Position numbers and translations under genes: made by a program
Sequence record: MH816966
Length of the DNA stretch: 64,000 nucleotides
Origin: Escherichia phage FEC19
Direction: 5' to 3' (one strand)
In this document: positions 9,133 to 27,305 of the stretch, one piece after another
Layout: each line of letters opens with the position of its first letter
Position numbering within the stretch: the stretch's first letter is position 1
Notes under the pieces: generated by a model
Told to the model about the DNA's origin: nothing
The model's input: the letters and a program-made list of their open reading frames with translations, nothing else
Database searches by the model: none

Positions 9133-10215
9133 CTATTTTATGCCACCTGCGCGACGATTTATCATATCAAGTTGATTCTCAATATAAGGCATGACTACTG
9201 CTTCAACAAAAGCGGTCCAGCCTTTCTTGCCTTCACCTTTCCGGTGACAGTCGTGAGCGCAACCGAAAACGAATTCATGTTCAGCGCCAGGGATTGGGCC
9301 TCGAAAATAAGCGCCGTATGGGTCGCCGTTGGTGTGCTCTTCACCCCAAGGACAGATGATGCGGCATTTACCTGACATGTTTTCAACCACATCGCCATCG
9401 GACCCTTCGCCCATCTTATTGCGCGCAAGGATTTGCTGGGCTATTTTATACCAAACAGCATCATATTTGTATTCGTCAACGTCGATTTGAATTTCACGCT
9501 TTTGCGGCATAACGACGTGGAAACCGAAGGCTTGGCAAATCTCTTCGATTGTGTAGCGCAAGGAATAGTCTGCATGGACAAGTCGGCAGCGGAACGGGTC
9601 GCCGTTCTCATCGACATATTTATAGGGGCCGTCGTGAGTCACACGCTTGTTGTTGATGCACCCAGGAACACGGCCCACGCGCGTCACGTCTTTAATCGTG
9701 TTGTCGCCGCCCTTCTTGAGTACCATGTTTACGAAAGACCCAAGGAATGCTTTGAACTGAATAAGATGGTCAATCGGTTCTTTAAAGAAGTACCACAGCT
9801 GATGGTTGTTCGGCGAAGTCTCGACGATGACGGTTGGTTTTAGGCGCTCGAAAAAGAATTCCAAATCTAAATCGCCCTTTGACCCTTTACCGTGCCCAAT
9901 GTCGTCGACCATCATCGCCATGCCATGACCAAAGGCCGATTCCGTGCGCCAGTATCGCATCTCGCCTGTCTTTGGGTTGGGAGACTTACGCATTGAACTT
10001 ATGCAGGCGTAACCGTTCTGATGTTGCATCAGCGGCTTGCCAAGCTTCCAAGGCTTAGGCCAGAAGCTGCTGTTAATCTTTTTGCCGCGCTCGTCAGTCT
10101 GCACTGTTGCTTCAGGCGCAAACACGGTCATGACGCGTTCATCTTCTGGAATGCCTCTTTGGAGTTCCGTCAAAAACTCTTCGATTATTTTTGCTTCTTC
10201 TCTTAAACTAGCCAT
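9133..10215 (-). CDS. putative primase-polymerase (prim-pol/AEP-like) with C-terminal zinc-binding region
   Basis: VDDIGHG (DxD-like), SPNNHQLWYFF and RVPGCINNK segments resemble prim-pol motifs; C-terminal CPWGEEH ... GCAHDCH cysteine/histidine cluster. Confidence 0.5.
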   Translation of the reverse strand: MASLREEAKIIEEFLTELQRGIPEDERVMTVFAPEATVQTDERGKKINSSFWPKPWKLGKPLMQHQNGYACISSMRKSPNPKTGEMRYWRTESAFGHGMAMMVDDIGHGKGSKGDLDLEFFFERLKPTVIVETSPNNHQLWYFFKEPIDHLIQFKAFLGSFVNMVLKKGGDNTIKDVTRVGRVPGCINNKRVTHDGPYKYVDENGDPFRCRLVHADYSLRYTIEEICQAFGFHVVMPQKREIQIDVDEYKYDAVWYKIAQQILARNKMGEGSDGDVVENMSGKCRIICPWGEEHTNGDPYGAYFRGPIPGAEHEFVFGCAHDCHRKGEGKKGWTAFVEAVVMPYIENQLDMINRRAGGIK

Positions 10216-10702: not shown

Positions 10703-11886
10703 TGAACATTCCAGAATTTAATAATGAGCCAGTGATTCAGTTCAACGCGCAACAGATTGATGCCATCGAAAAGGCCGTTGCATGGTACAAGCGATTGCAG
10801 GACGGTAAAACGACGAAGCGCGTGTTTTTCATCGCTGGCTATGCAGGAACAGGTAAAACCTCTATTGCGCGTGAGATTGTGCGCCGTTGTGTCGGTGAGT
10901 ACGGTGCCATTTATATTGCGCCGACCGGAAAGGCCGCCAGCCGATTGAAGCAGAAAGGGTGTCGTGGCGCGAAGACCCTTCACCAGTTCATCTATAACGT
11001 GCGCGGCGTAAATGACGACAATGAGCCAATATTTTCGAGAAAGTCAAAGCTGGACGAAAAGCCGCATCTTGTAGTCCTTGATGAAGCTTCAATGGTTGGC
11101 GAGTGGGATACAGAGCGCCTTCTTGATCACCGCATCCCTGTGCTGGCATTAGGCGACATTGGACAAGTCCCTCCAGTAAAAGCCGCCGCCTACTTTACTG
11201 AAGATGCCGTTGACGTCCTGTTAACCGAAATCATGCGGCAGGGGAAAGAGTCCAACATAATCCGCGCTTCCTTCTTCGTGCGACAGGGCAACCGACTTCC
11301 TCCGCGTGAATACGATGACGTAAAGGTGTTGGCTGAATCGCCGCGCGTTACCGCGCTGAAGAAATTCATGGGCGAAGATGATCAAATTATTTGTTCATAT
11401 AATAGCACTAAAGATAAATGGAATTCATTATTGCGACAAGTGAGCGGACGTATAACGCCAATGCCAGGAATCGGCGAGAAAGTTATTTGCACATTCAACC
11501 AACACGGGCCAGGATTCTGTAATGGCGAGCAAGGGATTGTTATTAGTTATGAGCCAGTGCCGGACTTTGAAAGGGATGAAGACGAGTCTAATGAAATCAT
11601 GTATGTCAATTTGCGCTCGCTTACCGATGGCAAGGATATAAAGGTTAAGATCAATCCTCTTTCCTTCTCTACTGATCAGGAAGTGCGCAAAGAGGCTCAA
11701 CGCGCTGTTGGAGGTATGGACTATGGCTATGTCATAACGGTGCACAAATCGCAAGGCAGCGAGTGGGACAATGTGTGCGTGCTGGAAGAAATCTTGCGCG
11801 GCGTTCCGTATGCCAAGATGATGTACACAGCCATCACCCGCGCTAAGAAGAATCTGACCGTGTACCGTGATTTGAAAGCGCGTTAA
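10702..11886 (+). CDS. SF1 RecD/Dda-like DNA helicase
   Basis: Walker A GYAGTGKTS, Walker B VVLDEASMV, VHKSQGSEWDNV and AITRAKKNL; GTGGAG RBS. Confidence 0.85.
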   Translation: MNIPEFNNEPVIQFNAQQIDAIEKAVAWYKRLQDGKTTKRVFFIAGYAGTGKTSIAREIVRRCVGEYGAIYIAPTGKAASRLKQKGCRGAKTLHQFIYNVRGVNDDNEPIFSRKSKLDEKPHLVVLDEASMVGEWDTERLLDHRIPVLALGDIGQVPPVKAAAYFTEDAVDVLLTEIMRQGKESNIIRASFFVRQGNRLPPREYDDVKVLAESPRVTALKKFMGEDDQIICSYNSTKDKWNSLLRQVSGRITPMPGIGEKVICTFNQHGPGFCNGEQGIVISYEPVPDFERDEDESNEIMYVNLRSLTDGKDIKVKINPLSFSTDQEVRKEAQRAVGGMDYGYVITVHKSQGSEWDNVCVLEEILRGVPYAKMMYTAITRAKKNLTVYRDLKAR

Positions 11887-12045
11887 TGTTGACGTAAATT
11901 TACGAAAAATAAAACTGAAAATCAGTTTAATTAAAGTGGCATCGCCGCCAGAGTTTTTAGTTGCTACTGGCGGCGACTGAAGGCATAATTAAGTTATCCC
12001 AAACGGGGAATATAAAATAAACTAATTTATTTAAGGACTGTGAAT

Positions 12046-12885
12046 ATGGCCGAAGCAATCAAAGTATTATCTAAAGAAGAAAAACAAGCAGCTGCAGCAG
12101 AACGTCGTCGCGTGGCTGAAGAAAAACGCCTGGCTAAAAAGAAAGAAGCCGAAGAAAAACGCCAGAAGCGTGAGCAGGAAAAACAAGCCAAGCGTGAAGA
12201 AGCTGCGCTGAAACGCAAGCAGGCTGCTGATGAGAAGGCTCAGAAGCGTGCTGAAGAAGCAGCGAAGAAAGCCAAAGAGCGTGCAGAAAAGGCTGCTGCT
12301 AAGAAAGCAGAGCGTGAAGCCGCTAAAGCAGCAAAAGAAATCGAAAAGGCAAAGGCTAAAGAAGAAGCCAAGCGCCTGAAAGCTGAACAAGCTGCTGCTA
12401 AGAAAGCAGAGCGTGATCAAGCCCGTGCTGCAGCGAAGGCCGAAAAAGAGAAGGCCAAAGAAGAAGCTAAAGCGAAACGCAAGGCAGAGCGTGAAGCTGC
12501 TAAGATTGCGGCTAAAGAAGCTGCAGAAAAGCAGAAAGAACAGCGTAAGAAAGAAGCTGAAGAACGTCGCAAAGCCATCGCAGAACGTAAGGCTGCTAAA
12601 AAGGCAAACGGTCAGCGTCGTGCAAAAGCAACCCACTTCATCTACACTGGCAATGGCCTGAGCCAGCCGCAAGAGCATTCCACCCGTGGACGCGTTCTGG
12701 CGGCGATCAAAGAAGGCGAAGTTGGCGTGGCGCAGTCTATCGATGAGCTGGGCGAAAAAGTTAAAGATCAACTGTTTGGCGCTTCCGTTCGCTCCTACCT
12801 GAGCAAGCTGGAAGAGATGGGCCACATCGAGTTTGTCGATGTTGAATCCAACGAAGATGCCGAAGACGGTGATCAAGCGGAATAA
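12046..12885 (+). CDS. Lys/Glu/Ala-rich low-complexity protein with globular C-terminal domain
   Basis: About 200 aa of KAKEEAK/AEEKR repeats then an ordinary-composition C-terminal domain; ATG at 12046 with AAGGA RBS preferred over the GTG at 12040. Confidence 0.6.
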   Translation: MAEAIKVLSKEEKQAAAAERRRVAEEKRLAKKKEAEEKRQKREQEKQAKREEAALKRKQAADEKAQKRAEEAAKKAKERAEKAAAKKAEREAAKAAKEIEKAKAKEEAKRLKAEQAAAKKAERDQARAAAKAEKEKAKEEAKAKRKAEREAAKIAAKEAAEKQKEQRKKEAEERRKAIAERKAAKKANGQRRAKATHFIYTGNGLSQPQEHSTRGRVLAAIKEGEVGVAQSIDELGEKVKDQLFGASVRSYLSKLEEMGHIEFVDVESNEDAEDGDQAE

Positions 12886-12912
12886 CCTTAGGACGGTTAT
12901 GCAGCGGTAATT

Positions 12913-12939
12913 GACCCACACTTGTTGTGGGTCTTTTTT
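12913..12939 (+). terminator. rho-independent terminator
   Basis: GACCCACA-CTTGT-TGTGGGTC followed by TTTTTT. Confidence 0.7.
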
Positions 12940-12964
12940 CATCTGTACTAAATAAAATGACTTG

Positions 12965-12993
12965 TTGCTGTAAAATAATTTAGCTATTATACT
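12965..12993 (+). promoter_or_regulatory. sigma70-like promoter
   Basis: TTGCTG-17-TATACT upstream of 13018. Confidence 0.45.
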
Positions 12994-13017
12994 TCTCATA
13001 TCACCCACAAAGGACAA

Positions 13018-14013
13018 ATGAACATGAAACAACCTGTAATGATTATCGGCGGCGGACTGGCAGGACTTATCACCGCGTGTCACTTCCCGAACTCTGTTGT
13101 GTACGAAGCAGGGGAACGAGCGCAACAGCACAAGGCGCTGCTACGCTTTCGCAGCGAAGAAGTAAGCCGTATTACCGGAATCCCTTTTAAGGCCGTGACA
13201 GTTGACAAGGCTGTGTATTTTCGCGGCAACTACTATCACGACCATTGCCCAATCAACCTTGCCAATATGTATTCCATGAAGGTCACCAATCAATTTGGCA
13301 GCCGTTCAATCATGAAGCTTAAGACTGCAACGCGTTATATTGCGCCTGATGACTTTTATGATCAGCTTGTCGACAAACTGGGTGACCGCATATTCTTTGA
13401 TACTCCGGTTGATACTCTTTGCGGCTATAGCGAGACGCCAATCATCAACACGTCGCCGCTGCCAGTAATGATGAAGCTTGCTGGGATTGATCAAAAGCTT
13501 GATTTCTCATTTGATAAAGCAAACATTCGCGTTTACCGCTTTAAGATTAAACGTAAGTGTGATTTGTATCAGACAATTTACTTCCCTGACTACTCCGTCA
13601 GAACTTACCGCGCATCAATTACTGGTGACACGCTTATCATTGAAACAATTCCTTTGGTCAGCGTGAGTGAAGCTGCAGTTGAAGCCGCTGGCGGCATCAC
13701 TCGTTACCGTGACATGAAGCTGCGCGCAGAAGTCGACGAAGTGTTGACAGCCTTTGGCCTCTCATGGAGTGACATTGCTCTTGAAGAAGTTGAAAAGGTC
13801 GACCAGAAATATGGCAAGATTGTCGACATTCCGAAAGACTTGCGACACGCCCTACTCCTGCAGCTGACTATGGATTTGAACGTGTTCAGTGTCGGTCGAT
13901 TTGCTACCTGGCGCAACATTTTGCTTGATGACGTTGCCCATGACCTTGTTGAAGTTGAAAAACTCATCAAAGCAAATAACTATCAAAAATTTGCTTATAT
14001 TGCTAATAAATAA
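13018..14013 (+). CDS. FAD/NAD(P)-binding Rossmann-fold oxidoreductase (possibly UDP-galactopyranose-mutase-like)
   Basis: N-terminal VMIIGGGLAGLITA (GxGxxG); C-terminal VGRFATWRNILLDDV resembles the conserved C-terminal motif of flavin mutase/amine-oxidase-like enzymes. Confidence 0.6.
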   Translation: MNMKQPVMIIGGGLAGLITACHFPNSVVYEAGERAQQHKALLRFRSEEVSRITGIPFKAVTVDKAVYFRGNYYHDHCPINLANMYSMKVTNQFGSRSIMKLKTATRYIAPDDFYDQLVDKLGDRIFFDTPVDTLCGYSETPIINTSPLPVMMKLAGIDQKLDFSFDKANIRVYRFKIKRKCDLYQTIYFPDYSVRTYRASITGDTLIIETIPLVSVSEAAVEAAGGITRYRDMKLRAEVDEVLTAFGLSWSDIALEEVEKVDQKYGKIVDIPKDLRHALLLQLTMDLNVFSVGRFATWRNILLDDVAHDLVEVEKLIKANNYQKFAYIANK

Positions 14014-14014
14014 T

Positions 14015-14043
14015 TTGCTTTCTGCTTCAATGGGCGTATACTT
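14015..14043 (+). promoter_or_regulatory. sigma70-like promoter with -10 inside a palindrome loop
   Basis: TTTGCT-17-TATACT; the -10 lies between 11-bp arms CTGCTTCAATG and CATTGAAGCAG. Confidence 0.45.
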
Positions 14044-14078
14044 TAATCATTGAAGCAGAACTCATAGAGGAAACGAAA

Positions 14079-14525
14079 ATGAAACGAATCACTGGAATCG
14101 CGCTTGCCGCTACTGCTATTCTCGGCACCATGTATATGGAAGCGACTGAAGCTGCCATCCGTACTTCCGATTCAATCGCTGTTTACGATTGCGAAGCGAT
14201 GGACGGCAAGACCTCAGCAACGACTGGTGCAAAGATTACCACTTACATCGGTGTGAACGAGCAAGAAGGTCTGAATATTCAGATTCAAGGATTCACAGGG
14301 AAAGGTACCAACCGTACTCCGTGGATGCAACGTTTCACTTTCGTCCAACCTCGTTCAACTGGCGACTTTATCAATCTGATTGGTGAAAACCGTTCTGGTG
14401 CAGAAATCTTTACATCAATGAGTTCTAATAATGAACCAAAGAAAAGTTTTCAGTTGCTTTATAACGCACAATTCGTTTATCATTGCACCTTCTCTGGTGA
14501 TCAGCAACTAGTGAATTACCGTTAA
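14079..14525 (+). CDS. secreted protein with signal peptide
   Basis: N-terminal MKRITGIALAATAILGTMYMEA hydrophobic signal-like segment; two Cys in the mature part. Confidence 0.5.
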   Translation: MKRITGIALAATAILGTMYMEATEAAIRTSDSIAVYDCEAMDGKTSATTGAKITTYIGVNEQEGLNIQIQGFTGKGTNRTPWMQRFTFVQPRSTGDFINLIGENRSGAEIFTSMSSNNEPKKSFQLLYNAQFVYHCTFSGDQQLVNYR

Positions 14526-14538
14526 TAGGATAATTAAA

Positions 14539-15369
14539 ATGAAAGTTGAATTAATTCGATACACCCAAGATGCACTTGACCTTTTGCTGGAAACAAAGAA
14601 CACGCGCATGACTGGTAAGCCTGTCTCTGAGATGACGGAATCAGAGAAGCAAGAGCATTGGCGCTACATGCTTGATACAATCAAGTCGCCTTTTGACTTT
14701 GTGGACTATATCTTTGACATCACCGATGTTTCAAAGAATATGACCCATCAGATGGTGCGCACACGCACAGGCGCATATCAAGAACGCACCAGCCGCGCTC
14801 AGGAGTCGTCTGCATTTGATGCGATTCGTCCGAAGGCATTCTCACACCAAAATCCAGAGTTGATTGATCAATGTGAAGCATTTGGGACTGATGAAGAGCA
14901 CCAGTCTTTACTTCAAAAGCAATACTTAGCAGAGAAGTGGGATGATGCGATGGCGACTATCGATGTTTTGTATCAAGAGCTTCGCGCGGCTGGCGCAGAG
15001 ATTCAAGATGCACGTGCCGTGTTGCCTTCTAATATGCAAACGCATATCATGGCAAAGTTCAACTTGCGCACGCTGCAACAGATGGCGTCAAACCGCTTGT
15101 GCACGCGCACTCAAGGCGAGTATCAAGAAGTATTCCGCGCGATGGTTGCTGAAGTCCTCAAGGTGCACCCGTGGGCAAATCCATTATTACAGCCGCAATG
15201 CATCGGTATGGGTAAATGCGCGTTTCCTCGTCATGGCAAAGCCCATTGCCCTTGGTATCGTGATTGGATGGATACCACGGCACAGCAAGAAGAGTTGCGC
15301 ATCCAGTTTTGGAGTGCGATGCCAATCACCAACAATCCAGTTGCTAAAGATGGAGTATCAAAAGGATGA
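14539..15369 (+). CDS. flavin-dependent thymidylate synthase (ThyX)-like protein, noncanonical motif
   Basis: VRTRTGAYQERTS aligns to the ThyX RHR-x7-S region and ARAVLPSNMQTHIMAKFNLRTLQQMASNR to the ThyX helix [29 protein letters not shown] (recalled from memory). Confidence 0.55.
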   Translation: MKVELIRYTQDALDLLLETKNTRMTGKPVSEMTESEKQEHWRYMLDTIKSPFDFVDYIFDITDVSKNMTHQMVRTRTGAYQERTSRAQESSAFDAIRPKAFSHQNPELIDQCEAFGTDEEHQSLLQKQYLAEKWDDAMATIDVLYQELRAAGAEIQDARAVLPSNMQTHIMAKFNLRTLQQMASNRLCTRTQGEYQEVFRAMVAEVLKVHPWANPLLQPQCIGMGKCAFPRHGKAHCPWYRDWMDTTAQQEELRIQFWSAMPITNNPVAKDGVSKG

Positions 15370-16238
15370 GCATTAAAAACAGCGAAATCTTAAACGTATT
15401 CGACCTTGACGGAACGCTGTTTGATGACCGTTGGCGCTTAGACCGCATCAAGGTGGCAGGTCCGTTGTCAGACTATGATGACTATCACAGCGGTATTGGT
15501 TATGATCAGTTCTATCCTCACATTGCATCAGCAGTAGAGTCGGCATCTCTTCGCGGTGAGGCGGTTGAATATTGGACTGCAAGGCCAGAAAAATACAGAC
15601 AAGTGACTTTTGAACGTCTGGATAATGTTTTTCCTTTTGATGAATTTACAATCAAGATGAGAGACTATGGCGACAAACGTCCATCAACTATTATGAAATC
15701 TGCATGGCTATCGCACGCATTGCGGCACGGCGATTATCGAATCATCAATGTATTCGACGACCGACAAGACGTACTCGCGCGGATGCAAGATGAAGCATTG
15801 TATTATAATTCCGTTGCTCAAAATAAAATCGCTTTTACATTTAATCTTTGCAAGGCAGGTGAAGTGGTGCAACAATTAGCAATTGATCCAAGCGCAACAG
15901 GGCAAGAAGAGACTAAGGCTGTGGAAGTTGAACAATCTCCGGCAACTGCCGCCGATATTCTTGATGCAATGGCAGCAACCTTCCGTGAGCGCAACGCTGT
16001 CTATGGTGATAACGCTGTGATGGTAGGTCAGGTTATGCAAGTGCTTTTCCCTAATGGCGTGACGTTGAAAACGCCGGAAGACTACCACATGTGGCATCTG
16101 TTCGAGCTTAAGATTGTCAAGCTTACACGCTTCGCAATCAGCGGCCTGAAGCACGAAGACTCTATACACGATGATGGTGTTTACAGCGCCATGTGTGAAC
16201 GTCTTGTTAACGCCCATAATATTAATTTCAATAAATAG
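15366..16238 (+). CDS. HAD-superfamily phosphatase fused to a C-terminal domain of unknown function
   Basis: HAD motif I FDLDGTLF plus downstream T, K and DD motifs; C-terminal about 120 aa with RERNAVYGDNAVMVGQVMQVLFPNG of unknown affiliation. Confidence 0.6.
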   Translation: MSIKNSEILNVFDLDGTLFDDRWRLDRIKVAGPLSDYDDYHSGIGYDQFYPHIASAVESASLRGEAVEYWTARPEKYRQVTFERLDNVFPFDEFTIKMRDYGDKRPSTIMKSAWLSHALRHGDYRIINVFDDRQDVLARMQDEALYYNSVAQNKIAFTFNLCKAGEVVQQLAIDPSATGQEETKAVEVEQSPATAADILDAMAATFRERNAVYGDNAVMVGQVMQVLFPNGVTLKTPEDYHMWHLFELKIVKLTRFAISGLKHEDSIHDDGVYSAMCERLVNAHNINFNK

Positions 16239-16268
16239 TTTACTTGTGCGTTTCGATGAGTTATATTT
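16239..16268 (+). promoter_or_regulatory. sigma70-like promoter with -10 inside a palindrome loop
   Basis: TTTACT-18-TATATT; the -10 lies between 12-bp arms CGTTTCGATGAG and CTCATCGAAACG. Confidence 0.45.
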
Positions 16269-16303
16269 ATCTCATCGAAACGAAGTCCAAAAAGGATAAA
16301 TAA

Positions 16304-16987
16304 ATGAAAAAAGTAATTGTTGTAACTGGCTGCAATTCCGGTCTTGGTAAATCCATTTTTGACACCCTTGGCGCTTACGGTCATGAAGTTGTCGGTATTG
16401 ATTTGGAGAACGGCTATGACATCCGTAACGCGAAACAGATGAAAGAGCTTCTCTCTCAATACGACGTAGAAGGCTTGATCAACTGCGCTGGCGTCAACTC
16501 CAACAACTGGTTCGAAGATGTTAACTACGAAGAGTTCAATCGCGTTATGCACACCAACGCCTTCTCTTTCGTCAACACGACTCAGGCCGCGCTGAAAAGT
16601 CTTATCGACAACAAAGGTTTTGTGATCAATATCGTTTCTAACGCTGCGCATATTCCTATGACGTCCAGCTTGTGTTATAATGCTTCCAAGGCTGCTGCGC
16701 TCATGATTAGCAAGCAGATGGCTCACGAGCTTACGCCTAAATACGGGATCACGGTATTCTCTATTAGTCCTAACAAGCTACGTGGTACTGGCATGTCCAA
16801 ACAAATTGAAGATGCTGTTTGCGCGACTCGCGGCTGGACTCCTGAGTATGCTGCTGAATACCAGAAAAAGGCGTTGATGAATGGATTGGAGACTGAGCCG
16901 CAAGTAATTGCTGACTTCATTCGCCATATCTTAATTACGGGCGCATGGCGCTTTATGTCTGGTACTGATATTCCATTTGGGAAATAA
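16304..16987 (+). CDS. short-chain dehydrogenase/reductase (SDR)
   Basis: Cofactor motif VTGCNSGLGKS (TGxxxGxG) and catalytic YNASKAA (YxxxK). Confidence 0.8.
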   Translation: MKKVIVVTGCNSGLGKSIFDTLGAYGHEVVGIDLENGYDIRNAKQMKELLSQYDVEGLINCAGVNSNNWFEDVNYEEFNRVMHTNAFSFVNTTQAALKSLIDNKGFVINIVSNAAHIPMTSSLCYNASKAAALMISKQMAHELTPKYGITVFSISPNKLRGTGMSKQIEDAVCATRGWTPEYAAEYQKKALMNGLETEPQVIADFIRHILITGAWRFMSGTDIPFGK

Positions 16988-16990
16988 ATC

Positions 16991-17161
16991 ATGACTATCA
17001 AAGTTGTTGTAGAAGTGATTGGCGACGTGGCAGAAGTGAAGATTGATCAAGAAGGCGTTGGATTTGAAGTAATAAGAATCGAAAACGCAAAGATTAACCA
17101 CGAGCGCGTCGGTTCAATTGAGACTTATTCCATAGAAGGCAACACAGTAATTAATCAATAA
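16991..17161 (+). CDS. small hypothetical protein (56 aa)
   Basis: Not in the ORF track; fills the SDR-to-VOC gap; weak RBS. Confidence 0.25.
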   Translation: MTIKVVVEVIGDVAEVKIDQEGVGFEVIRIENAKINHERVGSIETYSIEGNTVINQ

Positions 17162-17181
17162 TATTTAATTAAGGAAACAAA

Positions 17182-17733
17182 ATGCCACATTTTAAAATTG
17201 AACAAATCGCCCTGTCAATTCCAGATGCTCAGCGCGCACAGGATTTTCTGGCTAAAATCGGCCTGACAGAATGGTTCCATGATCATGTTGTTGCTACTGG
17301 TCGCGTATTTGAAGCTGATGACTTTAAAGGTCAGCGCGGCGATTGCACCAACGAAGCTGACTTGCGCTTCAACTATCAAGCTGGCAACGGCACCGATGGC
17401 GGCGCTGGTAAGCCTCTTGAACTTGAAATTCTTGACTACACGAAAGGCCGCAACTGGATTAACGAAAACATCGAATACATCGATGCACATGACAATCAGG
17501 TTAGCCATCTTGGTATGCACGTGACTGCCGCTGAACTTGCTGAATGGCGCAAGTTCTTTAAAGAAGAAGGCATTCAGGTTGCGCAGGAAGTTGTGACCGA
17601 CTCTCACACCAACCCAAACATTGCTGGTCAGCGTCGTTACAACTATGTGATCTTTGATACGCGTGAAATCATTGGTGTCGACCTTAAGTTCATCGTGCGG
17701 TTGAATCAAGACGGTACTCCGTACACTGTATAA
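17182..17733 (+). CDS. VOC/glyoxalase-fold protein (tentative)
   Basis: N-terminus HFKIEQIALSIPDAQRAQDFLAKIGLTEW has the glyoxalase/bleomycin-resistance-like pattern. Confidence 0.45.
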   Translation: MPHFKIEQIALSIPDAQRAQDFLAKIGLTEWFHDHVVATGRVFEADDFKGQRGDCTNEADLRFNYQAGNGTDGGAGKPLELEILDYTKGRNWINENIEYIDAHDNQVSHLGMHVTAAELAEWRKFFKEEGIQVAQEVVTDSHTNPNIAGQRRYNYVIFDTREIIGVDLKFIVRLNQDGTPYTV

Positions 17734-17749
17734 CGAATCGTGAATCTGT

Positions 17750-17775
17750 GGCCGTCCTAATGGGCGGCCTTTTTG
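17750..17775 (+). terminator. rho-independent terminator
   Basis: GGCCGTCC-TAAT-GGGCGGCC followed by TTTTTG. Confidence 0.65.
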
Positions 17776-17787
17776 TAGGAGGCCAAT

Positions 17788-18330
17788 GTGTTATTTCTCC
17801 CTTATGACTTCGAAACAACCGGATTAACCGTGCACCCGAAAGCGCCGCTTGGAATGCAGCCGCGCCCTATTGAATTTGCAGGCCTGTTGACGGATGGAAA
17901 AGAGATTCTTGAAACTTTCGAGTTCATAATTAATCCTGAAATTGTGATTGAAGAAATCATCACAAAGATTACCGGATTAACCAATGAAGACCTTGAGTGC
18001 AATCCACCCTTTATTCATTTCGTTCCGCAACTAAAAGACATCTTCAAGAAGACTGATGCCACTATCGCGCACAACCATGCGTTCGATAAGAACATCCTTG
18101 ATTATGCATTGCAGCGCGAAGGTCTTACACTTGGTGATGTTAATTTTCCAGAAATAAACATTTGTACAGTCGAGCAAACCTTGCCTATTTTTGGCCGAAG
18201 AGTTAAGCTTCAAGAGCTGTATGAATTATATTTCGGAAAATATGAACAGAAGCACCGTGCATTAGACGACGTAATATTACTGCACAAAGTCTGCCAACAA
18301 ATTGGCGTATATGACATCTGGAGTAAATAA
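17788..18330 (+). CDS. DnaQ-like 3'-5' proofreading exonuclease (DEDDh)
   Basis: Exo I LPYDFETTGL, Exo II HNHAFDKNIL, Exo III HRALDDV; GTG start after GGAGG. Confidence 0.85.
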   Translation: MLFLPYDFETTGLTVHPKAPLGMQPRPIEFAGLLTDGKEILETFEFIINPEIVIEEIITKITGLTNEDLECNPPFIHFVPQLKDIFKKTDATIAHNHAFDKNILDYALQREGLTLGDVNFPEINICTVEQTLPIFGRRVKLQELYELYFGKYEQKHRALDDVILLHKVCQQIGVYDIWSK

Positions 18331-21227
18331 TGTTTCCACAATTGAGAGTTCGCAGCGGTTACACGTTCAAAGAAGTATATGGACGGCATCCTGAAATTAT
18401 AGCACGGCTCAAAGAGTTGGGCTGCGAAGTCGCGGCATTAGTTGATAACAATACATGGGGTCACGTTCGCTGGGAAAAGGAATGCCAGAAAAATGATATT
18501 AAGCCTATGTTCGGCATGGAGATTCCAATCATCGACCCTGATGCGGACCCGAAAAAGGGATTCAAACCGAAGGCTTGGATATTGGCGCTTGACCTGAAAT
18601 CCTTTTACAATGCGACCACGCTTGCAACACAGCGCGGCGGATTGACCCGTGCAGAGTTCGGGGCGCTGGATGGCGTCGTTAAATTCTGTGGCGGTGCCGT
18701 GGAGCTGCTGCGGCCAGAGGACTACGATTATATAGACGTCAACCCATCATCGTTCCTTTTGGCCAAGCGCCAGGTATTGGCTCACCGCAGCAACGGAAGG
18801 CCGCTGGTTTTAACCGGATACAACCACATGCCTTCACCTGAGCACGTTGACTTTGCTTATGCTTGGGAAGTGCGCGACACGGTTAAGCCGCACTGCATCG
18901 TTGACGCGGAAGACTTGCGCAAACAGCTTAAAGGAATCCTGACCGAAGATGAGTTGAATCAAGCAACGGCCAATGCGGTTGATATTGCAAACGGAATCGT
19001 TGGGCTTGACCTGAAGCTGCGCAAGGCACCGATTATCCACCTTGCTGGTGACATGGTAAAGCTTGCTCGTGAGGGGATGGAGTACCGCCTCAAAGCAGGT
19101 CACATCAAAGAATGGACGCAGGAATATGAGGACCGATTCAACGAAGAGATTCACCAGATTCAGCTGAAAGATTTCGACTCATACTTTCTGGTGGTAGCGG
19201 ACCTTGTACGATTTGCAAAAACAAAAATGCTCGTCGGACCCGCTCGCGGCTCATCGGCTGGTTCACTGGTTTGTTATTGCCTCGGCATCACGGAAGTTGA
19301 CCCAATCCCGTATAAGCTGCTATTTGCCCGATTCATCGACGTAAGCCGCGCCGACCTCCCTGATATTGATATTGACTTTGAGGACACCAAACGCTATATG
19401 GTGTTTGATTACCTCAAAGAAAAATACGGCGAAATGAACGTTGCAAAGCTTGGAAACATCAACACGCTTAAGGCCAACTCAGTAATGGCTCAGGTTGGTA
19501 AGAAGTTCAACATTGGATATCACGAAACGGCCAACATTAAAAACGCATTGCTTGAATACTCATCCGGTGACGCCCGTTATGGTCACGGTCTGGAGGATAC
19601 CTTTGCAACAACGACCACGGGCCAAGAGTTCGTGGCGAAATATCCTGACGCCGCGCGATGCATGGGTGACCTTGAGATTCACCCTTCTCACACTGGCGTT
19701 CATGCAGCGGGAATCATTGTGTGTAATGACCCAATCTCTGATTACTGTACTGTAACGGCGGAAGGGATTGCGCAAATTGATAAGCCTGACAGCGAATACC
19801 TTAACCTTTTGAAGCTTGATGCGTTGGGCCTTCGTACCCTCGGCATCATTTCTGATACTGGCGTGATAGATGCTGAAACGCTGTACGGAATCAAGCTTGA
19901 TGATCAAAGCGTCCTTGACATCCTTAACGAAAACAAAATGTCAGGCATCTTCCAGTTTGAAGGTGACGCTGTACGCTCAGTAACCAACTTTGTGCACGTT
20001 GATAACTTTAACAAAATCGATAACCTGACAGCACTTGGTCGACCTGGCCCGTTGTCATCCGGTATGGCCCAAAAATACATCGAACGCGCGGCAGGACGTG
20101 CGCCGATTGAGTACGACGTGCCGCAGCTTGAGCCGTACTTAAAAGAGACTTACGGCGTGTTCCTTTACCAAGAGCAAATCATGGCCGTGGTTAAAGAGAT
20201 TGGTTCATTTGACTGGGCGAAAACATCAGCCGTGCGTAAGGCGATGTCAGGTCGTAAGGGTGAGGAATACTTTAACAAGCTTGGCGAAGACTTCGTTGCA
20301 GGCGCAATAAATAACGGCGTACCGGAAGCGGATGCAAGAAAGCTTTGGCAGGCGATGGCGACGTTCGGGTCATGGGGCTTTAACAAGTCACACTCCGTGT
20401 CATACGCGGTCGTAACCTACTGGACCTTGTGGCTTAAACGACACTACCCGTTGGAATTTGCCGCTGCTTGCTTACGCGCTGCTAAGGACGAAGACCAGAC
20501 GATTGCGATATTACGTGAACTTGCGAAGGAAGGCGTGGATTATGTGCCAATCGACCCTGATCACTCTTCAATGAACTGGACCATCGCTAACGGAAAGCTA
20601 ATCGGCGGCATCATGAACGCTAAAGGGTACGGAATGGTGAAGGCGATGAAGTACATCGAAGCACGTGAAGCCGGAACCTTAACGCAAAAGCAGAAGGATG
20701 CATTGGCCAATGCTGAAGTCAAATACGGCGACCTTACAGAGATGCACACCAAGTTCGGCTGGGCATATAATGACCCATATCTTATTGGCGTCACTTCCGG
20801 CGCTTCAATACGCCAGATGAAGGAAGTAGGCGATGATGAGCGTGCAATAGTAATCGGCAAACTGACCAAGAAAGTGCTGGCAGACGAGAACGAAGCAACA
20901 CGCATCCGTAAACGTCTTGAGCGCGGCATTTACACAAAGCACGGCAAACTTAAAAAGGGTCTTCAAGCTGATGGTCGCTACGCAGAGTTTGACCAGTATG
21001 GAAACAAGCTTGAAACTCAATTCATCGACCTTATGTGCAAGGACGATTCGACCGACTCGCCAATGCGCTTCAGGATTCGCCCAGAGAAGTTCCAGAAATA
21101 CGGGAAGTACATTGCAGAGAACGTCGGGAACGGTGCATTCTTCCTGATGAAAGGCCGCAAGCTTGAAGGTATTGATATGTTCATCGTCGACGTTATCAAA
21201 CAGGTGTATCCAGATGGCAACAAATAA
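18330..21227 (+). CDS. DNA polymerase III alpha (DnaE)-like replicative polymerase
   Basis: 965 aa; PHP-like N-terminus and SHSVSYAVVTYWTLWLKRHYPLEFAAA segment; coupled to the exonuclease gene by TAATG. Confidence 0.9.
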   Translation: MFPQLRVRSGYTFKEVYGRHPEIIARLKELGCEVAALVDNNTWGHVRWEKECQKNDIKPMFGMEIPIIDPDADPKKGFKPKAWILALDLKSFYNATTLATQRGGLTRAEFGALDGVVKFCGGAVELLRPEDYDYIDVNPSSFLLAKRQVLAHRSNGRPLVLTGYNHMPSPEHVDFAYAWEVRDTVKPHCIVDAEDLRKQLKGILTEDELNQATANAVDIANGIVGLDLKLRKAPIIHLAGDMVKLAREGMEYRLKAGHIKEWTQEYEDRFNEEIHQIQLKDFDSYFLVVADLVRFAKTKMLVGPARGSSAGSLVCYCLGITEVDPIPYKLLFARFIDVSRADLPDIDIDFEDTKRYMVFDYLKEKYGEMNVAKLGNINTLKANSVMAQVGKKFNIGYHETANIKNALLEYSSGDARYGHGLEDTFATTTTGQEFVAKYPDAARCMGDLEIHPSHTGVHAAGIIVCNDPISDYCTVTAEGIAQIDKPDSEYLNLLKLDALGLRTLGIISDTGVIDAETLYGIKLDDQSVLDILNENKMSGIFQFEGDAVRSVTNFVHVDNFNKIDNLTALGRPGPLSSGMAQKYIERAAGRAPIEYDVPQLEPYLKETYGVFLYQEQIMAVVKEIGSFDWAKTSAVRKAMSGRKGEEYFNKLGEDFVAGAINNGVPEADARKLWQAMATFGSWGFNKSHSVSYAVVTYWTLWLKRHYPLEFAAACLRAAKDEDQTIAILRELAKEGVDYVPIDPDHSSMNWTIANGKLIGGIMNAKGYGMVKAMKYIEAREAGTLTQKQKDALANAEVKYGDLTEMHTKFGWAYNDPYLIGVTSGASIRQMKEVGDDERAIVIGKLTKKVLADENEATRIRKRLERGIYTKHGKLKKGLQADGRYAEFDQYGNKLETQFIDLMCKDDSTDSPMRFRIRPEKFQKYGKYIAENVGNGAFFLMKGRKLEGIDMFIVDVIKQVYPDGNK

Positions 21228-21636
21228 CCGCGAGCAAAAATACATATTCGTTCCTTTGAAGAAGCATTCAGAATCAATATTGAAGCTTCAACGAATCGAA
21301 TCGATGACTGGTGATGGCGTGCCGGACGTAATCGGCACCAACCGGAAAGGTCGCGGCTTTTGGCTTGAAATGAAGTTCTTTGAATCGTGGCCTGCAAGGG
21401 CCACCACTGCACCTTTCAGAAATGCATTTGAGAAAGGTCAGTGCAGCTTTCTTTCTTCGTGGAATGATTGGAAATACCCATCATTTGTTTTGCTTAAAGT
21501 CGATTCTGAGAAGATGTTTTATTTAGTCCACCCTTCGATTGAATTAAAGCGTTATAATATTGCAGACGTTCAACGTGAGATAATCGTGAAGGGAACTATT
21601 CACCACATCATTAAGTATTTAGAGGAATTGTCATGA
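21214..21636 (+). CDS. VRR-NUC-like nuclease
   Basis: GVPDVIGTNRKGRGFWLEMKF; start refined to MATNNREQKY; sits immediately upstream of the SNF2 helicase. Confidence 0.55.
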   Translation: MATNNREQKYIFVPLKKHSESILKLQRIESMTGDGVPDVIGTNRKGRGFWLEMKFFESWPARATTAPFRNAFEKGQCSFLSSWNDWKYPSFVLLKVDSEKMFYLVHPSIELKRYNIADVQREIIVKGTIHHIIKYLEELS

Positions 21637-23156
21637 AAACACAAGGGATGCGCCACCAGCTTCTGGCGCTTGATAAAGCAGGCCGCAGAAAATACTTTGC
21701 CTATTTCATGGAACAGGGTCTTGGTAAAACTTGGACCGCTTTGGCAGAGTTTGAAAAGCACTTCACCGCTGGCGCGTTCGATGCCATGGTAGTCATCGCT
21801 CCAAACGGTGTCCACTCAAACTGGATTCGTCGTGAAGCGCCAGAGCACCTTTCCATCAAGTGGATTGGGCACTACTGGCGCGGCAACGATAAGATGAAAA
21901 CTAAAAAGGGCAAGGCGCTTTGGGAGAAGATGTTTGCTGATCACTACCCCGAAGGCGAAGTGCCTGCGCGCATCTTCTCATTCAACATCGATACTGTCAA
22001 CACACCAGTCGGTTATCAACACATCGAGTCGGTCTTGAAGAAGTACCGCTGCCTGATGATCATCGACGAATCAACGCGCATCAAGAATAACACAGCCAAA
22101 CGCTCCATCAAGGTTGTGGAATTGGGACGGCTGGCAAAGGCCCGTCGAATCCTTTCTGGCACGCCGTTGCCGCGCTCGCCTGCGGATATTTACATGCAAT
22201 ACCACTTCCTTGAAGCAGGATTGCTCGGCACCAAATCATTCCGTGCCTTTAACTCTGAATTTACAGTGCTGCTTGAAGCGCACGACCCAGAGATGCAAGC
22301 CATCCTCAAGAAAATCGGCGGCAATGGCTATGGGATTCCGCAAGTGCCGCGCAAAGACCAGTTTGGCCGACCGATGTACAAGAACCTTGACAAGCTTATC
22401 CGGCTGATGGAACCGCACTATTTTCGTGCAACAAAAGCAGAATACTTGCCTGACCTTCCAGAGAAGGTGTACAAGTTTATTGACTTCGAGTTGTCGCCTA
22501 AACAACGCGATGTTTACGATGAACTCAAGAATGAGTACAACTATTTGATGGAATACAAGGGCGAAGAAGAAAACGTCAAGTTTGAGATGATCGCGTCGCG
22601 CACTAAGATGAAGCAGGTGACATCCGGCTTTGTTAAGGTGTATGATGAGATGGTCTACATGGAAGACAACCCACGATTCACGGCCTTTAAGGATTATGTG
22701 GAAGGTGTGCTGGAAGATGACCCAGAGCGCAAATTCATCGTTTGGGCCATCTTTAAGGAAGAGATGAACCAGATTAAGGACTGGCTTGAGTCTGAAGGCG
22801 TGGTCACTGGTGTATACAATGGTGAAACGTCCAAAGAGCAGCGAGAGTTCTTAATTGATGACTTCCAGAAGAATACAGTCGAGAACGGCGGAACGCAAGT
22901 CTTGGTTTGCCACGCTGCAGCGGCAGGCATCGGCATCACTCTTACCGCCGCTGACTTGGCAATTTATTATTCTTGCAACTACGACAACGAGCTGCGCAAA
23001 CAATCCGAAGACCGAAATCACCGCATCGGCACCAAATCAAGCGTGTTGTATGTTGATTTTATTGGTGTTGATACCATCGACGAAGAAATTCAGCGTTCAC
23101 TCAGTATGAAGTCAATGCTTGCTGATCACATCCTCGACGGCAAAAAGATGAATTAA
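21633..23156 (+). CDS. SNF2-family helicase
   Basis: LMIIDESTRIKN (DExx box), ILSGTPL, and a C-terminal helicase domain; ATGA overlap with the upstream gene. Confidence 0.85.
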   Translation: MKTQGMRHQLLALDKAGRRKYFAYFMEQGLGKTWTALAEFEKHFTAGAFDAMVVIAPNGVHSNWIRREAPEHLSIKWIGHYWRGNDKMKTKKGKALWEKMFADHYPEGEVPARIFSFNIDTVNTPVGYQHIESVLKKYRCLMIIDESTRIKNNTAKRSIKVVELGRLAKARRILSGTPLPRSPADIYMQYHFLEAGLLGTKSFRAFNSEFTVLLEAHDPEMQAILKKIGGNGYGIPQVPRKDQFGRPMYKNLDKLIRLMEPHYFRATKAEYLPDLPEKVYKFIDFELSPKQRDVYDELKNEYNYLMEYKGEEENVKFEMIASRTKMKQVTSGFVKVYDEMVYMEDNPRFTAFKDYVEGVLEDDPERKFIVWAIFKEEMNQIKDWLESEGVVTGVYNGETSKEQREFLIDDFQKNTVENGGTQVLVCHAAAAGIGITLTAADLAIYYSCNYDNELRKQSEDRNHRIGTKSSVLYVDFIGVDTIDEEIQRSLSMKSMLADHILDGKKMN

Positions 23157-23169
23157 TATCAAAAATAAT

Positions 23170-23198
23170 TTGACTTGTCACGGAAGATGAGTCATAAT
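23170..23198 (+). promoter_or_regulatory. sigma70-like promoter
   Basis: TTGACT-17-CATAAT followed by the TCATCGAAACGAA leader motif also seen at 16271-16284. Confidence 0.5.
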
Positions 23199-23230
23199 TA
23201 CTTCATCGAAACGAAATAGAGGAATACAAA

Positions 23231-23494
23231 ATGGTACGCATCCTTGAACGTTACAAAAATGAAGCTACTGGCGCAATCGCGTTCAAACGTCTTTTGGTCA
23301 AAGAAATTGACGGTATGTTCCGCGTTGTAAAAGAGTTTGATTATGGCAACGGTGCTGGGGTGAATACCGTAATTATGCCTGGCATCAAGGCATATAAGAC
23401 TTTAAAAGGCGCTGAGAAGGCTTTGGCGGCTTGGAAACCTGAACGTTATCAAATGACCCGTGTTGAAGGGCTAATGCAAGAAGGTAAAATATGA
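23231..23494 (+). CDS. hypothetical protein (87 aa)
   Basis: ORF downstream of a TTGACT-17-CATAAT promoter. Confidence 0.45.
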   Translation: MVRILERYKNEATGAIAFKRLLVKEIDGMFRVVKEFDYGNGAGVNTVIMPGIKAYKTLKGAEKALAAWKPERYQMTRVEGLMQEGKI

Positions 23495-24048: not shown

Positions 24049-24107
24049 TTTAACCTTTATCTTGAAATCAGGTTGCCACGAAACTTGATACTATAGGAAA
24101 ATATCAA

Positions 24108-24968: not shown

Positions 24969-24987
24969 TCGACAATCAAATCAACAA

Positions 24988-25013
24988 GGCTGCCGATTGG
25001 CGGCCTTTTATTT
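24988..25013 (+). terminator. rho-independent terminator
   Basis: GGCTGCC-GATT-GGCGGCC followed by TTTTATTT. Confidence 0.6.
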
Positions 25014-25025
25014 ATCTGGTGCATC

Positions 25026-26164: not shown

Positions 26165-26166
26165 TT

Positions 26167-27129: not shown

Positions 27130-27203
27130 GACACTAGATAAATAATTGGTGCGGATAATCTATCGCGTTGTTTTATAGAATTTAATATACAGTGTATACA
27201 TAA

Positions 27204-27229
27204 AGCCGGAAATCTCCGGCTTTTCTTTT
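27204..27229 (+). terminator. rho-independent terminator
   Basis: AGCCGGA-AATC-TCCGGCT followed by TTTCTTTTATTT. Confidence 0.7.
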
Positions 27230-27246
27230 ATTTACCTTTCGCCTTA

Positions 27247-27274
27247 TTTACTTTCAAAACCTTCGGCCTATACT
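27247..27274 (+). promoter_or_regulatory. sigma70-like promoter
   Basis: TTTACT-16-TATACT upstream of 27306. Confidence 0.5.
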
Positions 27275-27305
27275 ATTAATATTCGTAATCAAAAGGTGAA
27301 TTATA

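What the first reader, a model, noticed from the sequence alone, without database searches (positions are those of the whole stretch)
16249..16282. Second palindrome around a -10, sharing a leader motif with a third promoter
CGTTTCGATGAG and CTCATCGAAACG (12-bp perfect arms) enclose the TATATT -10 upstream of the SDR gene. The 3' arm and following bases (TCATCGAAACGAA) recur after the TTGACT-17-CATAAT promoter at 23170-23215, where GATGAG-N10-TTCATC forms a weaker version. This points to a shared regulatory site for a subset of middle-gene promoters.
Basis: seen in the sequence. Interest (0 to 1): 0.55.

Follow-up and report, generated by a model that had tools for sequence, protein, structure and literature searches.

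The report
Promoter overlapped by a stem-loop
The palindrome is real, but it is most likely an RNA stem-loop laid over an ordinary host-type promoter of an E. coli phage, a composite cassette already described in T4-like phages, and its right half is a start-site motif shared by promoters of several unrelated enterobacterial phage families rather than a private regulatory site.

Summary
The window is a Wifcevirus, a roughly 68-kb E. coli myophage. CGTTTCGATGAG (16249-16260) and CTCATCGAAACG (16271-16282) are perfect arms around TATATT of a TTTACT-17-TATATT promoter for the FabG-like SDR gene. TCATCGAAACGAA recurs exactly at 23203-23215, again 4 nt after a -10. Three such perfect repeats occur where 0.07 is expected. 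The "weaker palindrome" at 23186-23208 is not above chance. A third promoter (14014-14060) has the same layout with different arms.

TCATCGAAACGA placed 4 nt after a -10 occurs in at least 122 distinct contexts in viral contigs. These include T1-like, T4-like Klebsiella, lambdoid HK639 pL and KFS-SE2-like phages. It is therefore a generic start-site and leader motif. The left arm is simply its complement placed in the spacer.

A T1-like subfamily carries a homologous hairpin around the -10. It shows compensatory changes, and its non-Watson-Crick pairs are G-U on the sense strand, apart from one unpaired cell. The only two arm variants among 27 Wifcevirus records are also G-U. No DNA-binding domain was detected with Pfam in about 40 small phage proteins.

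Best reading: a PeSL-like composite promoter and stem-loop that forms in read-through RNA. An operator or a cruciform remains possible.

The parts
16239..16244 (+). -35 hexamer TTTACT, directly after the stop codon (16236-16238) of the upstream PNK/phosphatase gene
16249..16260 (+). left arm CGTTTCGATGAG, inside the 17-bp promoter spacer
16262..16267 (+). -10 hexamer TATATT, in the loop of the hairpin; the repeat centre (16265.5) is within 1 bp of the hexamer centre
16271..16282 (+). right arm CTCATCGAAACG
16272..16284 (+). start-site and leader motif TCATCGAAACGAA; the start is predicted at A16274, 7 nt after the -10 (inferred, not mapped)
16292..16296 (+). Shine-Dalgarno AAGGA for the SDR gene
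16304..16987 (+). FabG-like short-chain dehydrogenase gene, first gene of the unit driven by this promoter
17750..17769 (+). terminator-like hairpin followed by a T run; likely end of the SDR-glyoxalase unit
23170..23198 (+). second promoter, TTGACT-17-CATAAT
23203..23215 (+). second exact copy of TCATCGAAACGAA, 4 nt after the -10; there is no significant hairpin here
14014..14042 (+). third promoter, TTTGCT-17-TATACT, directly after the stop of gene 13018-14013; its -35 is weak and the consensus scan did not list it
14020..14032 (+). left arm TTCTGCTTCAATG of the sister palindrome
   Evidence: (I12)
14048..14060 (+). right arm CATTGAAGCAGAA; with T14047 it reads TCATTGAAGCAGAA, a variant of the start motif at the same offset

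Best explanation
The element is a composite cassette in which a host-type (sigma-70) promoter and a stem-loop occupy the same 65-bp intergenic space.

The right arm is not a private site. It is the transcription-start and leader motif (C)TCATCGAAACGA, which many enterobacterial phage promoters carry 4 nt after their -10. The left arm is the complement of that motif written into the promoter spacer, the part of a promoter that is freest to vary. The -10 hexamer therefore ends up in the loop.

Transcripts that start at this promoter begin inside the right arm and lack the hairpin. Transcripts that read through from the upstream thyX-PNK genes contain both arms. There is no terminator in between. 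Those transcripts fold into a 12-15-bp hairpin of -18.7 kcal/mol just after the upstream stop codon.

By analogy with the promoter-early stem-loops (PeSLs) of T4-like phages, the hairpin most likely attenuates, ends or protects the 3' end of upstream transcription. The accessory SDR unit would then depend mainly on its own promoter.

Shown: the anatomy, the non-randomness, the cross-family distribution of the motif, and the covariation with sense-strand G-U pairing in a homologous hairpin family. Inferred: the start site, the read-through, and what the hairpin does to RNA.
For: 1. Geometry recurs with different sequence. A sister promoter at 14014-14060 has 13-bp perfect arms around its own -10. 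Its right arm is again the start region, and both repeats are centred on the -10 within 1 bp. The two share only an 8-bp core at 6 of 8 positions. Each is nevertheless perfectly self-complementary over 12-13 bp, so the differences between them are compensated.

2. The right arm is a generic motif. It is found in the T1-like phage BEK2, as variants in T1, in at least 122 contexts in IMG/VR, in T4-like Klebsiella phages, at the annotated pL of HK639, and in KFS-SE2-like phages. Of the 122 contexts, 62 have a -35 matching at 4 of 6 or better and 72 have a Shine-Dalgarno plus start codon. An offset-8 control gives 6 and 9 of 76.

3. Seven T1-like sequences carry a hairpin around the -10 that uses the same right arm. 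In them, 98.7% of 77 cells pair and 2 pairs show compensatory changes. There are 10 G-U cells, so 76 of 77 cells pair on the sense strand against 66 of 77 on the antisense strand. The sense fold is -20.2 kcal/mol and the antisense fold -13.2. One of the seven (L140) has the left arm CGTTTCGGTGAG, almost the same as here.

4. Among 27 Wifcevirus records, the only arm variants are two independent C-to-T changes in the right arm (16276 and 16281). Both give G-U on the sense strand.

5. PeSLs are described as sigma-70 promoters with stem-loops placed between the boxes or overlapping the -10. One such stem-loop reduced lacZ expression as strongly as a strong terminator in vivo (PMC2839356; PMC4122927).

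6. No DNA-binding domain was found in about 40 small proteins, and there was no Rfam match.
Against: The hairpin is followed by AAGUCCAAAAAGG, not a U tract, so it is not a canonical intrinsic terminator. The terminator scan does not list it.

No transcript ends are mapped for any Wifcevirus.

The close relatives are 91-98% identical, so invariance of the arms carries little weight.

The covariation evidence comes from only 7 related T1-like sequences (6 of 500 shuffles reach the observed score). It is transferred to this phage by analogy.

The PeSL hallmark of association with indels is not seen at this cassette. The indel hot spot at 16988-17181 lies inside the unit and has no cassette at its edges.

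Perfect dyad symmetry centred on a -10 is also what a repressor operator looks like.
Confidence: 0.5

Rival explanations
1. The palindrome is an operator. A dimeric phage or host DNA-binding protein would bind the two arms flanking the -10 and block RNA polymerase. It would co-regulate the promoters at 14014, 16239 and, weakly, 23170, much as the trp operator is centred on its -10.
For: The site has perfect dyad symmetry centred on the -10 at two promoters. The promoters share the core YTTCRATG / CATYGAAR, with core-to-core spacing of 22-23 bp, about two helical turns. The full core dyad occurs only at these two promoters, and the only other intergenic half-site in the window is at the third promoter.
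Against: The third promoter lacks the left half-site. The shared half-site is a generic start motif in phages that have no such dyad. Complementarity continues 4-5 bp beyond the shared core with unrelated sequence, which a protein would not require. Variants here and in T1-like relatives keep pairing through G-U or compensatory changes on one strand only. No helix-turn-helix or other DNA-binding domain was found in about 40 small proteins, and none is annotated in Bas99. No similar site was found in E. coli genomes.
Confidence: 0.2
2. The repeat acts at the DNA level. It would extrude as a cruciform on negatively supercoiled phage DNA, removing the -10 from duplex form. Promoter activity would then depend on superhelical state, as in the selected promoter of Horwitz and Loeb (1988, recalled from memory).
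For: The 34-bp repeat has an entirely A+T 10-bp centre. The single-strand DNA fold is -12.7 kcal/mol, z = -7.1. The same layout occurs at 14020-14060 (-11.9 kcal/mol).
Against: Loops of 10-15 nt disfavour extrusion. The G-T bias is restricted to one strand in the variants, whereas a cruciform needs both strands to pair. No data on supercoiling are available.
Confidence: 0.12
3. The repeat has no function of its own. It would be a historical by-product, for example of recombination between promoter cassettes, and is conserved only because the known Wifcevirus genomes are very close.
For: The 27 records are 91-98% identical, so arm invariance is uninformative. The orthologous SDR promoter of Myosmarvirus has a homologous leader but no such palindrome.
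Against: Two independent perfect repeats of 12-13 bp share the same geometry where 0.07 is expected. There is an independent hairpin family with covariation in T1-like phages.
Confidence: 0.12

Closest known systems
PeSL (promoter-early stem-loop) cassettes of T4-like phages (Arbiol et al. 2010, PMC2839356; Comeau et al. 2014, PMC4122927)
   Same: Both combine a sigma-70-type promoter with a stem-loop in one short intergenic cassette. The stop codon of the upstream gene lies in an A+T-rich stretch just before the -35, and a Shine-Dalgarno and start codon lie at the 3' end. The stem-loop may lie between the boxes or overlap the -10, and G-T pairs occur in the stems. The cassette sequence recurs within a genome. 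A cassette from a T4-like Klebsiella phage carries the same TCATCGAAACGA start motif.
   Different: The host phage is a Wifcevirus, not T4-like. The stems are long (12-13 bp, perfect), A+T-rich rather than polyG/polyC, enclose the whole -10, and use the start region as one arm. There is no U tract. Only 2-3 copies exist. No link to indels or to recombination between copies was found.
T1-like (Drexlerviridae) intergenic cassettes with the direct repeat aaATAGCACnnnTTGnTAAAA (TLS paper, PMC11447400)
   Same: They have the same -10, four bases, then TCATCGAAACGA followed by an A-rich leader. One subfamily has a hairpin enclosing the -10, and one member has a left arm nearly identical to the one here.
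   Different: The T1-like cassettes carry the 21-nt direct repeat 22 nt upstream of the -10 instead of a canonical -35. Most have a GC-rich hairpin in that interval, which the T1 record annotates as a terminator. The paper describes the repeat as of unknown function and was not seen to mention the start motif.
Operators centred on a -10, such as the trp operator or LexA boxes (from general knowledge)
   Same: The dyad symmetry is centred on the -10 hexamer.
   Different: The arms are separated by a 10-15-bp non-symmetric centre. No cognate protein was found. The sequence differs between the two promoters, but each stays perfectly self-complementary.
Hairpin promoters of phage N4 virion RNA polymerase (from general knowledge)
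   Same: An inverted repeat lies at a phage promoter.
   Different: N4 hairpins have 5-7-bp stems and 3-nt loops and are read by a phage polymerase. Here there are canonical -35 and -10 boxes at 17-bp spacing, and no phage RNA polymerase is annotated.
Initial transcribed sequences of T7 early promoters A1 (ATCGAGAGGG) and A3 (ATGAAACGACAG)
   Same: The predicted transcript start ATCGAAACGAAG resembles both (T7 record).
   Different: The resemblance covers only 5-8 bases. No function is assigned to these bases in T7 as far as checked here.

Membership tests
PeSL-type composite promoter/stem-loop cassette | sigma-70-like -35 and -10 boxes at about 17-bp spacing | tested here: met
   TTTACT-17-TATATT and TTGACT-17-CATAAT were found by the consensus scan. 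Activity was not measured.
PeSL-type composite promoter/stem-loop cassette | stable stem-loop within or overlapping the promoter boxes | tested here: met
   A 12-bp perfect stem encloses the -10, at -18.7 kcal/mol and z = -6.4.
PeSL-type composite promoter/stem-loop cassette | upstream stop codon in an A+T-rich stretch before the -35; Shine-Dalgarno and start codon at the 3' end | tested here: met
   TAG at 16236-16238 lies within AATTTCAATAAATAG. AAGGA is at 16292-16296 and ATG at 16304.
PeSL-type composite promoter/stem-loop cassette | cassette repeated many times in the genome | tested here: inconclusive
   Two copies align over about 45 bp (16239 and 23170). A third (14014) shares the layout and a variant motif. 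Other promoters of the window lack it.
PeSL-type composite promoter/stem-loop cassette | stem-loop terminates or attenuates upstream transcription | not testable with these tools
   There is no U tract after the stem and the terminator scan does not list it. Reporter or transcript-end data are needed.
PeSL-type composite promoter/stem-loop cassette | association with ORFans or indels, and recombination between copies | tested here: inconclusive
   The SDR unit is accessory. It is absent from Salmonella phage PCSE1 and is labelled a moron in the Bas99 record. However, the indel hot spot at 16988-17181 has six length states and no cassette at its borders.
PeSL-type composite promoter/stem-loop cassette | described host group: T4-like myoviruses | tested here: not met
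   The window is a Wifcevirus, related to PB1-like phages. The element is therefore called PeSL-like, not a PeSL in the strict sense.
Repressor operator | cognate DNA-binding protein encoded by the phage or host | tested here: inconclusive
   No DNA-binding Pfam domain was found in about 40 small proteins. No regulator is annotated in Bas99. Divergent proteins could be missed.
Repressor operator | same dyad consensus at every regulated promoter | tested here: not met
   The site at 23170 has only the right half. The arms at 14020 and 16249 share 6 of 8 core positions and differ outside the core.
Intrinsic (rho-independent) terminator | G+C-rich hairpin followed by a U tract | tested here: not met
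   The hairpin is followed by AAGTCCAAAAAGG on the + strand and CACAAGTAAACT on the - strand. It is not in the scan list.
Known RNA families (Rfam 15) | match to a curated covariance model | tested here: not met
   There were no matches at E up to 1 in 11800-28200.
N4-type hairpin promoter | short stem, 3-nt loop, phage-encoded virion RNA polymerase | tested here: not met
   The stem is 12 bp and the loop 10 nt. No RNA polymerase is annotated in a complete relative.

The most novel reading that the evidence does not exclude
The exact 12-mer TCATCGAAACGA at the transcription start would be a specific recognition element rather than a merely favourable start sequence. It is shared by promoters of at least five unrelated groups of enterobacterial phages: Wifcevirus, T1-like, T4-like Slopekvirus, lambdoid HK639 pL, and KFS-SE2-like. 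It would be read by the host transcription or translation machinery, or would act as a 5' RNA tag. The Wifcevirus and T1-like hairpins would then exist to mask that element in read-through transcripts and leave it exposed in promoter-initiated ones. That would be a switch telling two classes of mRNA for the same gene apart.
Probability: 0.15. Interest if true: 0.7.

Novelty: new member of a known kind. Interest (0 to 1): 0.42.

Why it matters
There is no published promoter map for Wifcevirus phages, which are being developed against E. coli O157. This work places three of their promoters and explains the conspicuous palindromes without invoking an unknown repressor.

It also extends the composite promoter/stem-loop idea from T4-like phages to a PB1-related group. 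The T1-like comparison shows that pairing, not sequence, is what is conserved there.

The side result may matter more. One 12-base start-site motif is shared word for word by early promoters of several unrelated coliphage families, including an annotated lambdoid pL. That points either to frequent exchange of promoter cassettes between phages of the same hosts, or to a host-imposed optimum that has not been characterised. Either can be tested with simple reporter constructs and would be useful for designing phage-derived promoters.

Tried and rejected
1. Known E. coli regulator sites were recalled from memory (LexA, CRP, FNR, PurR, RbsR, Cra, KdgR, NrdR, NsrR). None fits the arm sequence and arrangement. 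A BLAST of the site against 5,426 E. coli genomes gave only chance hits inside fadJ.

2. Pfam scans of about 40 small proteins looked for a regulator. Nothing DNA-binding was found. Genes 23491 and 24108 are Pam3 gp33/gp34-like.

3. The metagenome scan with the SDR protein gave only the source contig (100% identical) and distant SDRs. No intermediate relatives turned up.

4. The genome-contig scan for the motif was dominated by chance hits across all phyla and was capped. It was not informative.

5. Rfam gave nothing.

6. I asked whether the indel hot spot after the SDR gene is bounded by promoter cassettes. It is not.

7. I considered a rolling-circle nick site, a primase (RepB'-type) recognition hairpin, or an origin. 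I set these aside because the repeat is tied to the promoter boxes at two sites. A far better origin-like region with iterons and an A+T-rich stretch exists at 49657-50221.

8. I considered a T4 MotA-box reading of TTTGCTTTC at 14014. The spacing does not fit, and no MotA homologue is annotated.

9. A literature search for the motif string returned only unrelated primer sequences.

Full report
**What the window is.** The region 15000-24000 is 93-98% identical to 27 Escherichia and Shigella myophage records of the genus Wifcevirus, such as RCIP0319, Ro157lw, WFH and ECML-117. More distant relatives are Serratia/Erwinia Myosmarvirus, a Salmonella phage and, further out, PB1-like Pseudomonas phages. 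A metagenome contig, OKHM01000095.1, encodes a 100% identical SDR protein.

The finding lies in the plus-strand replication and nucleotide-metabolism module. It sits between a PNK/phosphatase gene (15366-16238) and a FabG-like short-chain dehydrogenase gene (16304-16987). I found no paper that describes Wifcevirus promoters.

**The observation.**
- The -35 hexamer TTTACT is at 16239-16244. A 17-bp spacer follows, then the -10 hexamer TATATT at 16262-16267.
- The arms are CGTTTCGATGAG (16249-16260) and CTCATCGAAACG (16271-16282).
- The repeat finder extends them to 15 bp with one mismatch. The consensus scan lists the promoter.
- TCATCGAAACGAA occurs exactly twice in the window, at 16272 and 23203. 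The second copy follows TTGACT-17-CATAAT.
- In both promoters the motif starts at the fifth base after the -10.
- The two promoters align from the -35 to +12, except for seven spacer bases. Those seven bases are exactly the outer part of the left arm.

Perfect inverted repeats with arms of at least 12 bp and loops of 3-20 nt number three in the window. Simulations expect 0.07. The hairpin folds at -18.7 kcal/mol as RNA (z = -6.4) and -12.7 kcal/mol as DNA (z = -7.1). The "weaker version" at 23186-23207 is not above chance (z = -0.8).

**A sister element.** The promoter in front of gene 14079 is TTTGCT-17-TATACT at 14014-14042. It has 13-bp perfect arms, TTCTGCTTCAATG and CATTGAAGCAGAA, around its -10 (-18.4 kcal/mol, z = -5.6).
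- Both intergenic regions are 65 bp long. In both, the upstream stop codon abuts the -35.
- The repeat is centred on the -10 within 1 bp.
- The right arm begins in TCAT at the same offset.
- The two pairs of arms share only an 8-bp core (YTTCRATG / CATYGAAR) at 6 of 8 positions. Each pair is nevertheless perfectly self-complementary, and the pairing runs on beyond the core in unrelated sequence.

Self-complementarity that survives such sequence differences is what selection for pairing produces. A shared protein half-site would not require it.

**The motif is not private to this phage.** A short BLAST of the site unexpectedly hit T1-like siphophages. In BEK2 a terminator hairpin is followed by TATATT-AATC-TCATCGAAACGAAAC, then a Shine-Dalgarno and ATG.

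Exact-pattern scans of viral contigs found the motif 4 nt after a -10-like hexamer in at least 122 distinct contexts.
- Of these, 62 have a -35 matching TTGACA at 4 of 6 or better.
- 72 have a Shine-Dalgarno and start codon within 55 nt.
- A control with the motif 8 nt after the hexamer gave 76 contexts, with 6 and 9 respectively, and none with all features.

The contexts belong to several groups.
- T1-like phages. T1 itself has variants, located where its record annotates terminators.
- T4-like Klebsiella phages. The whole cassette matches 488 records at 730 places.
- Lambdoid phages HK225 and HK639. In HK639 the motif follows the annotated pL and precedes the putL-like antiterminator RNA.
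- KFS-SE2/Bas81-like siphophages.

The T7 record shows that A1 starts ATCGAGAGGG and A3 starts ATGAAACGACAG, which are similar. The upstream 21-nt repeat of the T1-like cassettes is published as an element of unknown function (PMC11447400). The passages retrieved from that paper do not mention the start motif. So the shared "leader motif" is a generic start-site module of enterobacterial phage promoters.

**Evidence on what the palindrome is.** Among the 122 contexts, only a few have an inverted repeat enclosing the -10. They are the Wifcevirus copies and a T1-like subfamily of seven sequences. In that subfamily:
- 98.7% of 77 pair cells form standard pairs.
- Two pairs show compensatory changes (G-C to U-A, and G-C to A-U through G-U).
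- Ten cells are G-U.
- Slid controls give 26-58% paired.
- On the antisense strand the G-U cells become A-C, so 76 of 77 cells pair on the sense strand against 66 of 77.
- The sense fold is -20.2 kcal/mol and the antisense fold -13.2.

One member, L140, has the left arm CGTTTCGGTGAG, almost the Wifcevirus arm. That is expected if the left arm is selected to pair with a fixed right arm.

In Wifcevirus the 27 records are too close to be informative. Even so, the only two arm variants are independent C-to-T changes in the right arm, and both give G-U on the sense strand.

The orthologous SDR promoter of Myosmarvirus keeps a homologous leader. It has a short GC hairpin in the spacer in place of the palindrome. 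This again shows a structure whose position and sequence drift.

**Comparison with what is known.** The best match is the promoter-early stem-loop (PeSL) of T4-like phages. These are sigma-70 promoters with a stem-loop between the boxes or overlapping the -10. The upstream stop codon lies in an A+T-rich stretch, and a Shine-Dalgarno and start codon follow. One stem-loop reduced reporter expression like a strong terminator, and recombination between copies shuffles accessory genes (PMC2839356; PMC4122927).

The anatomy here meets those features. Several other features do not fit.
- The host group differs.
- The stems are longer and A+T-rich.
- There is no U tract.
- Only two or three copies exist.
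- The nearby indel hot spot at 16988-17181 is not bounded by cassettes.

I therefore call it PeSL-like. It is a new member of a known kind, not a member in the strict sense.

**Mechanism proposed.** Transcripts from this promoter would start near A16274, inside the right arm, and lack the hairpin. Transcripts reading through from the thyX-PNK genes carry both arms and fold. No terminator-like site lies between 14079 and 16304 apart from a weak one inside coding sequence.

The hairpin then attenuates transcription, marks a 3' end, or protects the upstream message. This would insulate the accessory SDR-glyoxalase unit, which ends at the terminator at 17750. The start site, the read-through and the effect on RNA are all inferences.

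**Rivals.**
- *Operator centred on the -10.* This remains possible at about 0.2. It is weakened by the missing left half at the third promoter, the generic nature of the "half-site", the strand-biased wobble pattern, and the absence of any detectable DNA-binding protein.
- *Supercoil-driven cruciform.* This fits the A+T-only centre, but not the long loops or the one-strand bias.
- *Neutral by-product.* This is hard to square with two independent perfect repeats of the same geometry.

**Verdict.** The feature is a real but fairly ordinary composite promoter/stem-loop. The more interesting outcome is the cross-family start-site 12-mer, which I could not find described.

Noticed in passing
loci L090, L091-L219, L105, L448 (other phages); window 16272-16283 and 23203-23214: The exact 12-mer TCATCGAAACGA sits 4 nt after the -10 in promoters of T1-like, T4-like (Klebsiella Slopekvirus), lambdoid (HK639 pL, upstream of the putL-like RNA), KFS-SE2-like and Wifcevirus phages. 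It has at least 122 distinct contexts in IMG/VR. A control at a different offset shows no promoter features. I did not find it described.
   Followed up: partly
L096, L140, L149, L154, L186, L210, L326 (T1-like contigs): A T1-like promoter subfamily has an 11-15-bp hairpin enclosing its -10 (TATTAT). It shows compensatory changes and sense-strand-only G-U pairs. L140 has nearly the same left arm as the Wifcevirus palindrome.
   Followed up: yes
L029 (MTx) 9200-9236, 11730-11775, 18610-18653; L031 (PCSE1) 7350-7396, 10870-10913, 16500-16542: In Myosmarvirus and Salmonella phage PCSE1, many replication-module promoters carry a short GC-rich hairpin in the spacer, ending at or in the -10. Often GGAT lies in or beside the loop (for example GGCCAAGGATGGCC and AGCTCACGGATGAGCT). 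The same loop motif appears in T1-like cassettes (CGCCATGGATGGCG).
   Followed up: partly
window 49657-50221: This 565-bp non-coding region carries many copies of GATACGGAT in both orientations. They flank a roughly 90-bp almost pure A+T stretch, and the region includes perfect 13-bp inverted repeats at 49776/49799 and 49974/50017. The layout looks like iterons plus an unwinding element, and so like a candidate replication origin.
   Followed up: no
window 11936-11989: A GC-rich 10-bp perfect inverted repeat, TCGCCGCCAG-N15-CTGGCGGCGA, encloses the -35 (TTGCTA) of a TTGCTA-17-CATAAT promoter. Its left arm overlaps a small terminator-like hairpin followed by a T run, so two mutually exclusive RNA structures are possible.
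   Followed up: no
window 61709-61734 and 60415-60460: Terminator hairpins are fused to promoters. GCCGCgctatGCGGC is followed by TTTATTATAAT, so the U tract contains a TATAAT. AAGGCGCTgaaaAGCGCCTT is followed by TACTTT, where TT plus TACT forms a TTTACT -35. These are further composite terminator/promoter layouts in the same phage.
   Followed up: no
window 16988-17181: The interval between the SDR and glyoxalase-like genes is an indel hot spot. Lengths of 90, 96/97, 194, 239, 352 and 409 bp occur among 14 Wifcevirus genomes, caused by gain, loss and fusion of small ORFs.
   Followed up: yes
window 35292-35340: A 14-bp perfect inverted repeat, ATAGACTCCTTATA-N21-TATAAGGAGTCTAT, lies at the junction of two minus-strand structural genes. 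Both arms contain a Shine-Dalgarno-like AAGGAG or its complement, so translational coupling or masking is possible.
   Followed up: no
window 62148-62950: This 800-bp stretch has no long ORF and carries several direct repeats. Examples are GTACTGCAAATTT, GAAAGCGAATGATT(C/G)(G/C)GCGCA(T/G)AATAATAT and TATAAAACAACGACTT(G/A)CGCGA.
   Followed up: no
window 23491-24968: Two genes downstream of the second promoter match the Pfam families DUF7307 (Pam3 gp33-like, E = 2.6e-37) and Pam3_Gp34 (E = 4.2e-86). Their function is unknown.
   Followed up: no
L019 (TH35, record marked UNVERIFIED): TH35 has TATCTT in place of the TATATT -10 at the SDR promoter, and several changes in the loop at 14033-14035. 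These may be sequencing errors or real promoter variants.
   Followed up: no
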